NCBI GenBank assembly: GCA_018664825.1
Contig: JABJNO010000017.1
Coordinates: 1-48,742 of the forward strand
Direction: 5' to 3'
DNA: 48,742 nt
Origin: Candidatus Parcubacteria bacterium
GTDB taxonomy: Bacteria; Patescibacteriota; Patescibacteriia; UBA1558; GWA2-36-10
Shown piece by piece: positions 36,065 to 37,867 of this stretch (position 1 is the stretch's first letter; each line of letters begins with the position of its first letter). The notes beneath the pieces are model-generated. The model searched no databases. It saw only the letters and a program-made list of their open reading frames with translations, and had not been told where the DNA came from. The translations under genes were made by a program, and so were the position numbers.

Positions 36065-36171
36065 GTTTTACCTCCTAAGTAGTTTTATGAGTTCTTGAAT
36101 GTACTTTTGCGGATAATTTATCTTATTAAAAATAAGAGTATTTGTCAATTTTATGTTATAATACACGGGTT

Positions 36172-36654
36172 ATGAATAAAAAAGGCTTTACATTATTGGA
36201 AATGCTTTTGGTGATTGCCATTGTTGGTATCTTGTCTTCTGTTACAGTAGTAAACTTGAGTCAGCTCAAAGCCAAGGCTCGGGATGCAAATCGTATATCA
36301 GATGTTGAACAAATCCAAAAAGTTGTTGAAATATATTTTGATGACTATGGTGAATATCCAAACACTAGCTGCCAAGGTCTAGCGGGTATAGTTGGTTGTG
36401 CATCGGCATTAAATTCAGGTACCTGGATTTCAGATTTAAATATGATCTTGCCAAATGATCCTATTCATGGACAAGAGGGTCATATATCGGATTATAGTGA
36501 TAATGTGCATTCGTATATTTTTACTAGAGGTGCTGGGATACCAGAAGAATATTATTATATTTTATTCAAAAGAGAGGCTGGTGCTCAGACAGACGAATGC
36601 GATGGAAGTCCTTATGTTGGTTGGTCTTGTCTGGGTGGTGGGGATTTACCTTAA
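36172..36654 (+). CDS. Type IV pilin / pseudopilin
   Basis: Class III signal KKG/FTLLEML, KARDANRISD, YP, PNDP, C-terminal Cys pairs. Confidence 0.92.
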   Translation: MNKKGFTLLEMLLVIAIVGILSSVTVVNLSQLKAKARDANRISDVEQIQKVVEIYFDDYGEYPNTSCQGLAGIVGCASALNSGTWISDLNMILPNDPIHGQEGHISDYSDNVHSYIFTRGAGIPEEYYYILFKREAGAQTDECDGSPYVGWSCLGGGDLP

Positions 36655-36740
36655 ATAAAATTTTAGCTCAAAAACACCTAAAGTATAATTGAGTAGGTGT
36701 TTTTTTATTTACTTCATTAGGAAAGAGCTTTTGATGGTAT

Positions 36741-36769
36741 TTGACATAATAATAAAATTATCTTAATAT
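36741..36769 (+). promoter_or_regulatory. sigma70 promoter of ncRNA C
   Basis: TTGACA-17 nt-TAATAT, downstream of the pilin terminator (about 36670-36710). Confidence 0.75.
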
Positions 36770-36775
36770 CAGCTT

Positions 36776-37010
36776 AGTTCATTGATAAGGTGCTCGGAAA
36801 AACAAAAGCCGTTTGGGGTGTAATGGTTCGAATCCTAACATTTGGGCGGAGATCTATATCTTTTGTTGTAGAATACGTGGGAGACTTTGACGTTGTGACG
36901 CTAGTCACAAAATAGTCGTCAGTGAAATACCACTGCTTAAGATCTCTAGATCAAAACCTCCGAGCACCCACTTACATCAAGCCTCTAGAATATCTAGAGG
37001 CTTTTTATTT
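36776..37010 (+). ncRNA. Putative stand-alone ncRNA C containing a 23S rRNA L1-stalk (H76-H78) mimic and a tRNA T-loop-like motif
   Basis: Closing helix GGUGCUCGGA 36789-36798/UCCGAGCACC 36959-36968; GGUUCGAAUCC 36825-36835; 36867-36933 aligns without gaps to the L1-stalk head of 23S rRNA as recalled; terminator 36979-37010. Confidence 0.82.
36979..37010 (+). terminator. Intrinsic terminator of ncRNA C
   Basis: AAGCCTCTAGA-ATA-TCTAGAGGCTT-TTTATTT. Confidence 0.9.
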
Positions 37011-37027
37011 TAAAATAAAAAGACACA

Positions 37028-37213
37028 CTATGACAGTGTGTCTTGTTTTGGATCTTCTCGGAGACACTCGGGTACATGATTCATCACTCGATGAAATTCT
37101 TCGTCAATTTCTTGGCGGATTACTTTGGGGTCTAGTGAAAGTCCTTTCTCGGTTCTGATTGCAATGGCACGAGCCAAAAAAACATCACGGATAATCCAAA
37201 CTGGACCTTGCAT
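37028..37213 (-). CDS. Small hypothetical protein
   Basis: SD AAAGGAG; stop lies in terminator AAGACACACT/AGTGTGTCTT. Confidence 0.65.
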   Translation of the reverse strand: MQGPVWIIRDVFLARAIAIRTEKGLSLDPKVIRQEIDEEFHRVMNHVPECLREDPKQDTLS

Positions 37214-37261
37214 TGTAGTCTCCTTTGCTTTTGGTTTGTATGAACGATTATATTTTATATA

Positions 37262-37462
37262 TTATTCTTTTGATTCATCAGACATTTTTTGTAAAATAAT
37301 GATTCTTTGTTGTTCTCTTATAAGTTTATCTTTGTAAGATATTTTTACTTCTTGCCAAACATAAAGTGCAGTTATAAAAATAACGGAAATAAAAATAAAA
37401 ATTATCATAATTTCATAAATATTATGAAATCCCTTTCGATTTTTAGGTAGATGCATGTTCAT
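37262..37462 (-). CDS. Small single-TM protein
   Basis: 66 aa; KG-F...E resembles a degenerate prepilin start. Confidence 0.55.
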   Translation of the reverse strand: MNMHLPKNRKGFHNIYEIMIIFIFISVIFITALYVWQEVKISYKDKLIREQQRIIILQKMSDESKE

Positions 37463-37465
37463 ATT

Positions 37466-37867
37466 TTAAATATTGAAAACAAAGTCAAAGAGAATACCAG
37501 CAATCAAAGCAATACCTGAAAGAATAAAGATAACATAATAATTCCATCTTTCTTTGGATGAAACCAAAGTTCTCAGTATATATTCCAAAGCCTTGTTGTC
37601 ATCTGGAGTGAGTTCGTCTAGAGTATTGGCGTCTAGTTTTTCTTTTAATCTATGCTCCACTATCAAGTTGGAACGTTTTTTTGATATATCAAAGCGATGA
37701 ATAAAGTATAAGATAAATCCAATAGTACCAACATACCAAGATATTTTTACCCAAGTATCACTATAATAGTTCAATACTATGATAGCTCGATAAGCTAGTG
37801 TAGCTACGATGCCTGCCCAAAAATAAAAAAGTCGAACTGATTTTGGGCTTGTTTTTATATCTTCCAT
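37466..37867 (-). CDS. Three-TM membrane protein
   Basis: 133 aa with three hydrophobic segments. Confidence 0.75.
   Translation of the reverse strand: MEDIKTSPKSVRLFYFWAGIVATLAYRAIIVLNYYSDTWVKISWYVGTIGFILYFIHRFDISKKRSNLIVEHRLKEKLDANTLDELTPDDNKALEYILRTLVSSKERWNYYVIFILSGIALIAGILFDFVFNI

What the first reader, a model, noticed from the sequence alone, without database searches (positions are those of the whole stretch)
36741..37010. Free-standing RNA carrying a 23S rRNA L1-stalk head
Seen: promoter, 10-bp closing helix, two domains, terminator, and no flanking rRNA. Bases 36867-36933 (UGUAGAAUACGUGGGAGACUUUGACGUUGUGACGCUAGUCACAAAAUAGUCGUCAGUGAAAUACCAC) align without gaps to E. coli 23S around nt 2109-2175 as I recall it, 49/67 identical by hand count. 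The differences are largely compensatory (GGCU/AGCC to GACU/AGUC; H78 stem to UUGUGAC/GUCACAA), and an H76-like stem (GAUCUA/UAGAUC, AUCUU/AAGAU) carries the head. Known: this head holds the uL1 binding site and the interdigitated T-loops that grip the tRNA elbow, and some Parcubacteria lack uL1. Inference: a functional RNA rather than debris, acting as a trans-encoded L1 stalk, a uL1 sponge or a tRNA-elbow-binding decoy, possibly against a host.
Basis: partly seen in the sequence, partly recalled or inferred. Interest (0 to 1): 0.95.

Follow-up and report, generated by a model that had tools for sequence, protein, structure and literature searches.

The report
Free-standing L1-stalk plus tRNA-like RNA
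A small stand-alone RNA gene joins a copy of the ribosome's tRNA-gripping L1 stalk to a tRNA-like arm, and it belongs to an undescribed RNA family found in scattered small-genome bacteria.

Summary
Window 36789-36968 (+) is a 180-nt RNA closed by a 10-bp helix, with a promoter-like site and an intrinsic terminator. Bases 36863-36933 match 23S rRNA at the L1 stalk (H76-78) and nothing else: nhmmer E 3.4e-12, 73% to E. coli 23S. No rRNA flanks it, and independent assemblies bridge the locus.

The 5' domain is a tRNA-like minihelix with a T-arm (GGUUCGAAUCC). The RNA also belongs to a family: G015, G293, two other MAGs and 36 metagenome contigs. Its helices covary strongly: 85% of cells paired against 64% in shuffles, 27 of 35 pairs with double changes. 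Both arm lengths are fixed.

It does not replace a lost stalk. G293 carries both the RNA and a 23S that keeps H76/H77, and this genome encodes uL1. Rfam 15 and six literature searches name no such RNA.

Best reading (inferred): the L1-like head caps a tRNA-type elbow, most likely the RNA's own or that of a second copy, and probably binds uL1. The cellular role is unknown, and no expression data were available.

The parts
36741..36769 (+). Promoter-like site: TTGACA (36741-36746), 17-nt spacer, TAATAT (36764-36769)
   Evidence: 10 of 12 consensus positions. A TTGAC-type site with a -10-like hexamer lies upstream in 15 of 34 family members.
36789..36798 (+). P1 closing helix, 5' strand (GGUGCUCGGA)
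   Evidence: Pairs with 36959-36968. Same helix in G015 and L060. Closing helices of unrelated sequence across the family: own mean 8.5 against cross-sequence control 6.1, and 11 of 23 above the control's 95th percentile.
36799..36803 (+). Junction AAAAC; 'AAC' is the family consensus just before P2
   Evidence: Consensus 'aac' at 60-90% in alignment A5.
36804..36808 (+). P2 5' strand (AAAAG), the acceptor-like stem of the tRNA-like domain; pairs with 36839-36843 with one A.A mismatch
   Evidence: Alignment A3 and model R2. All 5 P2 pairs show changes on both sides in the family.
36809..36821 (+). D-loop-like linker holding a G run (CCGUUUGGGGUGU); variable in the family, with hairpins inserted in larger members
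   Evidence: a GG lies within a few bases of P2 in the sequences read by eye. Its pairing with the T-loop is inferred, not tested.
36822..36838 (+). T-arm: 7-nt loop UUCGAAU (36827-36833). Only G-C pairs 36825-36826/36834-36835 are standard here; three non-standard layers (U.U, A.A, A.A) extend it
   Evidence: GGUUC.A..CC is invariant in 34 of 34, but the search pattern forced it. The T stem is 92.7% paired, with 3 of 5 pairs changed on both sides.
36839..36843 (+). P2 3' strand (CAUUU), running straight on from the T stem as in a tRNA acceptor/T minihelix
   Evidence: The T loop is followed by 9-11 nt before the conserved GG in 33 of 34.
36844..36866 (+). Conserved GG, then the stalk 5' strand: GG 36848-36849, GAUCUA 36851-36856, bulged U 36857, H76-distal AUCUUUUGU 36858-36866
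   Evidence: 9 of 9 H76-distal pairs changed on both sides; 70% of cells paired. Outer stems read by eye against G015.
36867..36934 (+). L1-stalk head. T-loop-1 region UGUAGAAUA 36867-36875. H77 36876-36880/36930-36934. H78 base 36883-36885/36915-36917. H78 distal 36892-36899/36904-36911, loop GCUA. T-loop-2 region 36918-36929 (GUCAGUGAAAUA)
36935..36958 (+). Stalk 3' strand: GCUUAAGAU 36935-36943, bulge CUC 36944-36946, UAGAUC 36947-36952, AAAA, CC 36957-36958
36959..36968 (+). P1 closing helix, 3' strand (UCCGAGCACC)
36979..37010 (+). Intrinsic terminator: 11-pair hairpin 36979-37003 plus a T run
   Evidence: Terminator-like sites lie downstream in 19 of 34 family members.

Best explanation
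Window 36789-36968 is the gene of a stand-alone structured RNA. It is the minimal (Parcubacteria-type) member of an undescribed family.

Shown: a 9-12-bp closing helix (P1) holds two arms.
- Arm 1 is a tRNA 'top-half' mimic. A short acceptor-like stem (P2) stacks on a T-arm with the loop UUCRANN, about 10 layers in all, and a G-rich D-loop-like linker joins them.
- Arm 2 is a homologue of 23S rRNA helices 76-78, the L1 stalk. It keeps the two T-loop regions and the H77/H78 site where protein uL1 binds.

Inferred mechanism: the L1-like head does here what it does in the ribosome, which is to stack on the flat elbow of a tRNA-type fold. The elbow on offer is the RNA's own, docked within one molecule, or that of a second copy, giving a head-to-elbow dimer. 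Because the uL1 site is intact, the RNA probably also carries uL1. The result would be a rigid, free copy of the ribosomal 'L1 stalk holding an E-site tRNA' arrangement.

What the cell uses it for is not known.

The confidence of 0.45 is for the docking mechanism. That this is a real, independent structured-RNA gene family with these two modules I hold at about 0.9.
For: Shown:
1. Likeness to 23S is local to H76-78 and significant.
2. It is a gene of its own. It has a promoter-like site and a terminator. No rRNA lies in the window or in the assembly. The locus is bridged with 0 differences and no joints by contigs of independent runs: X3 covers 36564-37500 and X4 covers 36398-37500.
3. It has a family. 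Full-length homologues lie in G015, in another genus of the same family; in G293, of the same class; and in two MAGs labelled Gammaproteobacteria. 36 of the 39 metagenome contigs hit by the pattern are real members, three of them repeats of other rows. Model R2 finds 34 of 34 family loci at 57-126 bits. Each of the 5 host genomes holds one copy.
4. The helices covary. 85.2% of cells are paired against 63.9% in shuffles (0 of 500 reach it) and 42-49% when the partners are slid. The covariation score is 0.606 against 0.207. 27 of 35 pairs changed on both sides, including 5 of 5 in P2 and 9 of 9 in distal H76. P1 helices have unrelated sequences.
5. Both arms have fixed lengths. The T loop is followed by 9-11 nt before the conserved GG in 33 of 34, and GG to H77 is 29-33 nt in 32 of 34. 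The search pattern allowed 30-60 nt for the whole span.
6. Unpaired head letters that the pattern did not force match the universal 23S consensus: guAGnAUAg, uGAag, ugGAGnC, and the U before and the AC after GAAAUACC.
7. Neighbouring genes are unrelated housekeeping genes, no gene stands downstream to be regulated, and no phage genes are near.

Established knowledge: two interdigitated T-loops in the L1 stalk, RNase P and T-box RNAs stack on the tRNA elbow. The review's authors expected further cases on 'tRNA or tRNA-like structures' (PMC4810234, passages read).

Inference: a receptor and its ligand on one RNA, with both arm lengths fixed, point to docking between them.
Against: - No experiment or 3D model supports the docking. 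The two arms differ in length (about 10 layers against roughly 18 plus the head), so docking within one molecule needs a bend or a fold-back that I could not test.
- In the window copy the T stem has only two standard pairs, and P2 has an A.A mismatch.
- The family was gathered with a pattern that forced GGTTCRANNCC, GTGGGAGNC and GAAATACC. Invariance of those letters is therefore circular, and the sample is biased.
- Alignment A5 was fitted to the model's structure, which favours that structure. For members with long D regions the model probably chose a nearer, wrong P2 5' strand.
- My stricter own-against-cross test of P2 was weak: 18 of 34 own against 38% of cross pairs.
- uL1 binding is inferred from sequence alone.
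- No RNA-level data exist.
- Rfam's LSU model did not report the window copy, nor L042, L047 or L073.
Confidence: 0.45

Rival explanations
1. uL1 sponge or regulator. The RNA's job is to bind free ribosomal protein uL1 at its rRNA-type H77/H78 site, buffering uL1 or tuning the uL1-controlled rplKA operon from a distance. The tRNA-like arm would only stabilise the RNA.
For: H77 and the base of H78, with the GGGAG and GAAAUACC letters, are kept. uL1 is encoded in this genome at C7:44698-45273, 207.5 bits, full length. From recall, not from any call: uL1 represses its operon by binding an mRNA mimic of this site.
Against: By my recall of the known uL1 mRNA sites, a uL1 site needs only H77/H78. 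Here the T-loop letters, the whole H76-like stalk, the T-arm and both arm lengths are conserved too. The RNA was found in only 2 of the 39 genomes of the family by model, which is odd for control of a universal protein. It is not linked to rplKA.
Confidence: 0.17
2. Binder of cellular tRNAs in trans. The L1-like head grips the elbows of real tRNAs, as a sponge, sensor or chaperone, in the way T-box Stem I and RNase P do.
For: The elbow-binding module is conserved (PMC4810234). Some members lie among tRNA genes. L034 sits between tRNA-Gly and tRNA-Phe. L069 lies just after a tRNA 3' end (read by eye). L042 lies about 500 nt upstream of two tRNAs. In L059 and L066 a complete tRNA-Asp-like sequence with CCA, read by eye and not checked with a tRNA finder, directly precedes an L1-like module.
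Against: This does not explain why the RNA carries its own T-arm at a fixed distance. No second tRNA contact, such as a specifier or a catalytic core, is visible. Most loci are not near tRNA genes.
Confidence: 0.15
3. Scaffold of an unknown protein complex, in the manner of a Y RNA. The closing helix and junction bind a protein, and the tRNA-like and L1-like modules recruit tRNA- or ribosome-handling enzymes or protect the RNA from nucleases.
For: The architecture recalls bacterial YrlA: a long helix made of the 5' and 3' ends, plus a tRNA-like module (PMC4201824, passages read). The junction letters AAC and a purine-rich stretch before P1's 3' strand are conserved (read by eye).
Against: No Ro60/TROVE gene in 5 of 5 host genomes. 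No conserved neighbouring gene. No partner was identified.
Confidence: 0.1
4. Trans-encoded L1 stalk. The organism's 23S lacks H76-78, and this RNA supplies the stalk to the ribosome as a separate piece.
For: Fragmented rRNAs exist elsewhere, for example in apicomplexan mitochondria (PMC10948144, abstract seen in the listing). The 23S is not assembled in 4 of the 5 host genomes, so it cannot be inspected there.
Against: G293 has both the RNA and a full 23S (2312 bits, model 1-2925) that keeps H76/H77 and the head motifs. The RNA's ends pair with each other (P1) and offer no strands to dock into H75/H79. A tRNA-like arm has no place in a stalk. Of the 37 other genomes of the family, 16 gave no match to R1 at all, so a missing 23S in a MAG is ordinary.
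Confidence: 0.03
5. Debris or artefact: a decayed or misassembled fragment of a 23S gene.
For: It resembles 23S, and the assembly has no 23S.
Against: Independent assemblies bridge it. It has a family, covariation, and promoters and terminators. The head reads UGUAG...GAAAUACC where 6 of 7 CPR 23S sequences, including same-family L004 and L008, read UUCAG...GAGAUACC.
Confidence: 0.01

Closest known systems
23S rRNA L1 stalk (helices 76-78)
   Same: Homologous in sequence and pairing. The G015 copy aligns without gaps to Rfam LSU 2128-2213. The window copy is 73-78% identical to real 23S. The same conserved unpaired letters are kept.
   Different: It is not part of an rRNA. It has its own promoter and terminator, its ends are closed by P1, it is joined to a tRNA-like arm, and it coexists with a normal 23S stalk in G293.
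T-box Stem I distal platform and RNase P J11/12-J12/13 (interdigitated T-loops that read the tRNA elbow)
   Same: Presumably the same way of working: a double T-loop platform that stacks on a tRNA-type elbow (PMC4810234).
   Different: That review holds those modules to be convergent with the L1 stalk. This one is a sequence homologue of the stalk. There is no specifier, antiterminator or catalytic core, and no Rfam T-box or RNase P match.
Bacterial Y RNAs (YrlA) and the tRNA-like domain of tmRNA
   Same: A stable non-coding RNA with a helix formed by its two ends, and a tRNA-like module built round a T-arm with the tRNA T-loop sequence (PMC4201824).
   Different: No Ro60 gene in 5 of 5 host genomes. 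No D stem or acceptor end. ARAGORN finds no tRNA or tmRNA in the window. An L1-stalk module is unknown in those RNAs.
uL1-binding site in the leader of the L11/L1 operon mRNA (rRNA mimicry by r-protein leaders)
   Same: An RNA outside the ribosome that carries the H77/H78-type uL1 site. The description of the leader is recalled, not taken from any call.
   Different: This RNA is not a leader. rplA lies on another contig, a terminator follows the RNA, and it keeps the whole stalk and both T-loops rather than a minimal protein site.
Fragmented rRNAs encoded as separate small RNAs (e.g. apicomplexan mitochondria)
   Same: A short gene homologous to one piece of a large rRNA (PMC10948144, abstract only).
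   Different: Here the complete 23S, stalk included, exists as well.

Membership tests
23S rRNA (as a fragment of an rRNA gene) | Sequence and pairing of H76-H78 | tested here: met
23S rRNA (as a fragment of an rRNA gene) | Continuity with neighbouring rRNA domains (H75, H79 and beyond) | tested here: not met
   No LSU match in the window or the assembly. The nhmmer match is confined to the stalk. The flanks are a pilin-like gene and small ORFs.
uL1 autoregulatory mRNA leader | Lies in the 5' untranslated region of rplKA/rplA | tested here: not met
   rplA is on C7. A terminator follows the RNA, and the next ORF is on the opposite strand.
uL1 autoregulatory mRNA leader | Binds uL1 | not testable with these tools
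   Site letters are conserved. There is no binding assay.
tRNA | Cloverleaf recognised by tRNA finders | tested here: not met
   ARAGORN finds 0 genes in the window. No Rfam tRNA match at E <= 10 in 36600-37100.
tRNA-like module (top half: acceptor-like stem stacked on a T-arm) | T-arm with a 7-nt loop UUCRANN, and a stem that closes it and runs on in one strand | tested here: met
   In the window copy the stems are weak: 2 standard T pairs and one A.A in P2.
tRNA-like module (top half) | Elbow formed by the T-loop with a D-loop GG | not testable with these tools
   A GG is present near P2 (read by eye). There is no structure.
Bacterial Y RNA (YrlA) | Ro60/Rsr orthologue in the genome, usually adjacent | tested here: not met
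   No TROVE match in 5 of 5 host genomes. The control rang in D. radiodurans and B. thetaiotaomicron.
tmRNA | Acceptor end, tag reading frame, recognised by ARAGORN or Rfam | tested here: not met
T-box riboswitch / RNase P RNA | Match to the Rfam model; for T-box, a downstream regulated gene | tested here: not met
   A terminator follows, and then a gene on the other strand.
Any Rfam 15 family | Score at or above the gathering threshold | tested here: not met
   Window; L033 and L034, tRNAs only. G015 reaches 48.7 bits and 54.9 bits for LSU, over the stalk only.

The most novel reading that the evidence does not exclude
The RNA is a free, self-contained replica of the ribosomal E-site grip: an L1 stalk, with uL1 on it, clamped on a tRNA-type elbow. 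It would act either as a symmetric head-to-elbow RNA dimer or multimer, or as a decoy or adaptor for factors that recognise the L1-stalk/tRNA complex, such as E-site-binding factors or nucleases that target tRNA or the stalk. [quoted passage not shown]
Probability: 0.2. Interest if true: 0.92.

Novelty: categorically new. Interest (0 to 1): 0.82.

Why it matters
No free-standing RNA gene homologous to a working domain of rRNA, and fused to a tRNA mimic, turned up in Rfam 15 or in six full-text searches.

If the head does dock on a tRNA-type elbow, this is a natural, minimal system of about 180 nt for studying the L1-stalk/tRNA grip outside the ribosome. It would also be a new class of structured RNA in the little-known small-genome (CPR-type) bacteria.

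It raises testable questions. Does a cell keep a second uL1-binding stalk? Do RNAs use an elbow and an elbow receptor as a tertiary or quaternary contact, as they use tetraloops and their receptors? Why is the gene so patchily spread, at 2 of 86 genomes of the order and 2 of 401 sampled from the class?

Tried and rejected
- Known Rfam family: none at gathering score in the window, none relevant at E <= 10 in 36600-37100, only tRNAs in L033 and L034.
- Extension of the 23S likeness into H79. From memory, the start of the 3' domain of the large members looked like H79. nhmmer matches stop at the stalk, and Rfam LSU reported nothing for L042, L047 or L073 at E <= 0.01. Dropped.
- Phage or plasmid origin. 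The pattern found 0 viral contigs. Phage and plasmid records gave only 23S genes. No phage genes lie next to any locus examined.
- Conserved neighbouring gene: none in 30 ORFs scanned, 10 in the window and 20 in 9 other loci.
- Y RNA: no TROVE match.
- Expression: no RNA holder listed. This says nothing either way.
- 23S in host genomes. It is not assembled in G000, G015, G063 or G064, so only G293 could be used. Records behind the metagenome contigs are not held.
- Automated P2 test with greedy T-stem extension: weak, 18 of 34 own against 38% cross. Replaced by the covariance-model alignment, which leans towards its own structure.
- Rows dropped before counting. L032, L036, L043 and L052 are chance or tRNA/tmRNA-end matches. 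L049, L055, L072 and L069 repeat L031, L038, L037 and L041. L061 is cut at its 5' end. L059 and L066 have a true tRNA upstream and a different build. All were left out of A5.
- Tree of heads. Mean identity is 0.67 family to family, 0.66 family to 23S and 0.75 among 23S, over 68 columns. That is too short to root or to date the origin.
Supplements of PMC4201824 (YrlA alignments) and of the motif-discovery papers listed were not seen, and they could hold an unnamed motif like this one.
- The distribution figures come from an exact pattern and so are lower bounds. The only model-based survey covered the 39 genomes of the family.

Full report
**What is there.** Window 36789-36968 (+) lies between a pilin-like gene (36142-36654; N-terminal methylation motif) and small ORFs on the opposite strand.
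- A promoter-like site matches 10 of 12 consensus positions: TTGACA 36741, 17-nt spacer, TAATAT ending at 36769.
- An 11-pair terminator hairpin at 36979-37003 with a T run brackets the other side.
- The ends GGUGCUCGGA and UCCGAGCACC form a 10-bp helix.
- The stretch folds better than all 200 shuffles, z = -4.3.
- ARAGORN finds no tRNA or tmRNA.
- No Rfam 15 family reaches its gathering score in the 48.7-kb window.

**The 23S likeness is real and local.**
- BLAST against 60 relatives hit nine other genomes. Six of those loci (L004-L009) are true 23S genes by Rfam, matched at 74-78% over window about 36862-36934. L010 and L011 were not checked.
- An HMM of those six 23S sequences hits the window at E 3.4e-12, on the stalk only.
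- E. coli 23S matches window 36863-36933 at 73.2% in 4885 of 5426 genomes, at positions 2112-2182 of the annotated gene.
- Acinetobacter 23S matches exactly 36867-36933 at 76.1%.
- The homologue in G015 aligns without gaps to Rfam LSU positions 2128-2213 with the H76/H77/H78 pairing (48.7 bits, E 7.9e-14; 54.9 bits). The window copy is colinear with it.
- Against this, Rfam's LSU model itself did not report the window copy.

**It is not an artefact and not a copy of the resident rRNA.**
- Contigs from independent runs cover 36564-37500 (X3) and 36398-37500 (X4) with no differences and no joints.
- In 6 of 7 CPR 23S sequences, including same-family L004 and L008 and G293's own 23S, the head reads UUCAG...GAGAUACC. 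The window RNA, like E. coli, reads UGUAG...GAAAUACC.

**It has a family.**
- G015, in another genus of the same family, carries a full-length homologue with its own promoter and terminator.
- A model built from the two (R1) found full-length copies in only 2 of the 39 genomes of the family. Its other hits were 23S-type stalk matches.
- A pattern joining the T-loop and the two head motifs found G015 again, two MAGs labelled Gammaproteobacteria, and one chance hit among 185,579 species genomes.
- A looser pattern found 0 viral contigs and 39 metagenome contigs. I judged 3 of the 39 to be chance and 3 to be repeats.
- The same pattern hit 2 of 86 genomes of the order and 2 of 401 sampled from the class. 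The gene is therefore rare and patchy, though an exact pattern undercounts.
- Each of the 5 host genomes holds one copy.
- Neighbours are unrelated housekeeping genes such as SHMT, FolD, a Mur ligase, a PBP, ClpB, DnaK, DprA, TopA, class I LysRS and OTCase. There are no phage genes and no constant partner.
- Promoter-like sites precede 15 of 34 members, and terminator-like sites follow 19 of 34.

**Architecture.** Reading the members side by side gives this order:
- P1, then AAC.
- P2 5' strand, then a G-rich linker that in larger members holds inserted hairpins.
- A T-arm with the loop UUCRANN, then the P2 3' strand running straight on from the T stem, then GG.
- An H76-like stalk and the L1 head (H77, H78), then the stalk 3' strand.
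- In larger members a further 3' domain, then P1 3' strand and a terminator.
- The window, G015 and L060 are the minimal form.

**Covariation.**
- I built model R2 from ten members with a hand-written structure. It found all 34 family loci at 57-126 bits and real 23S stalks at 31-73 bits.
- On its alignment, 85.2% of cells pair, against 63.9% in shuffles (0 of 500 reach it) and 42-49% with slid partners. 27 of 35 pairs changed on both sides: P2 5 of 5, T stem 3 of 5, distal H76 9 of 9, distal H78 8 of 8.
- The alignment is fitted to the model, which favours the structure.
- P1 helices of unrelated sequence score 8.5 on average against 6.1 for cross-sequence controls, and 11 of 23 exceed the control's 95th percentile.
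- Arm lengths are fixed: 9-11 nt from the T loop to GG in 33 of 34, and 29-33 nt from GG to H77 in 32 of 34.
- Head letters that the pattern did not force follow the universal 23S consensus.

**It is not a replacement stalk.**
- This genome encodes a full-length uL1 (207.5 bits).
- The 23S is missing from four of the five host assemblies. That is common in MAGs: 16 of the 37 other genomes of the family gave no match to R1.
- G293 has both the RNA (L077) and a complete 23S (2312 bits). That 23S keeps GCAUAGGUGGGAGC...GUGAGAUACCACC, with an AT-rich insertion of about 85 nt in H78.
- The free copy there is 49% identical to its own 23S head and 65% identical to E. coli's.

**How it most likely works.**
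- Shown: one RNA carries a tRNA-type T-arm minihelix and a homologue of the module that grips tRNA elbows in the ribosome. Both sit at fixed distances from a common junction.
- Established: interdigitated T-loops of the L1 stalk, RNase P and T-box RNAs stack on the tRNA elbow (PMC4810234, passages read).
- Inferred: the head caps the RNA's own elbow, or that of a second copy, and the intact H77/H78 site binds uL1.
- I put about 0.45 on this docking reading.
- Rivals: a uL1 sponge (0.17), a binder of cellular tRNAs (0.15), a Y-RNA-like scaffold (0.10; no Ro60 gene), a trans-encoded stalk (0.03) and debris (0.01).
- The unequal arm lengths, the weak T stem of the window copy and the lack of any RNA-level or structural data are the main weaknesses.

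**Novelty.**
- Nothing in Rfam 15 matches.
- Six full-text searches found no such RNA (listings and abstracts only, apart from passages of PMC4810234 and PMC4201824 and the outline of a 2026 preprint on tRNA mimics).

Noticed in passing
L078 (G293:C24:13234-17781, - strand); stalk region about L078 2131-2360: The 23S gene of G293 spans 4548 nt for a 2925-position model, so it holds large insertions. One is an AT-rich insertion of about 85 nt inside H78 of its L1 stalk.
   Followed up: partly
L004, L005, L006, L008, L009, L078 against L007 and L076 (L1 head): Six of seven CPR 23S sequences read UUCAG...GAGAUACC where L007, E. coli and the free-standing RNAs read (U/C)(G/U)UAG...GAAAUACC. This may be a linked change in the T-loop region of the ribosomal stalk in this lineage.
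   Followed up: partly
L059 about 700-900 and L066 about 360-560: A complete tRNA-Asp-like sequence (anticodon GUC, encoded CCA) lies directly 5' of an L1-stalk-like module closed by an 8-bp stem GAGUAGGU/ACCUACUC. Another tRNA-like sequence follows. This build differs from the main family and could be an intermediate form. It was read by eye and not checked with a tRNA finder.
   Followed up: partly
L034 131-546: The family member in this 5.9-kb contig sits between tRNA-Gly(GCC) and tRNA-Phe(GAA) on the same strand, so it may be co-transcribed and cut out with tRNAs.
   Followed up: no
L041 and L058, 3' of P1: These two related members share a tail, CGUAGC.GUU..., outside the closing helix and before the terminator.
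   Followed up: no
window 37020-37044: A second hairpin, AAGACACAC...GUGUGUCUU, just after the RNA's terminator scores as terminator-like on both strands. It may end the ORFs on the opposite strand.
   Followed up: no
G063 and G064 (hosts of L033, L034): Two MAGs labelled 'uncultured Gammaproteobacteria' are only about 0.9 and 0.7 Mb. The label may be unreliable, or they may be reduced symbionts. This bears on how widely the family is spread.
   Followed up: no
G000, whole assembly: The assembly is 98.7% complete by marker genes but has no LSU rRNA match at all.
   Followed up: partly
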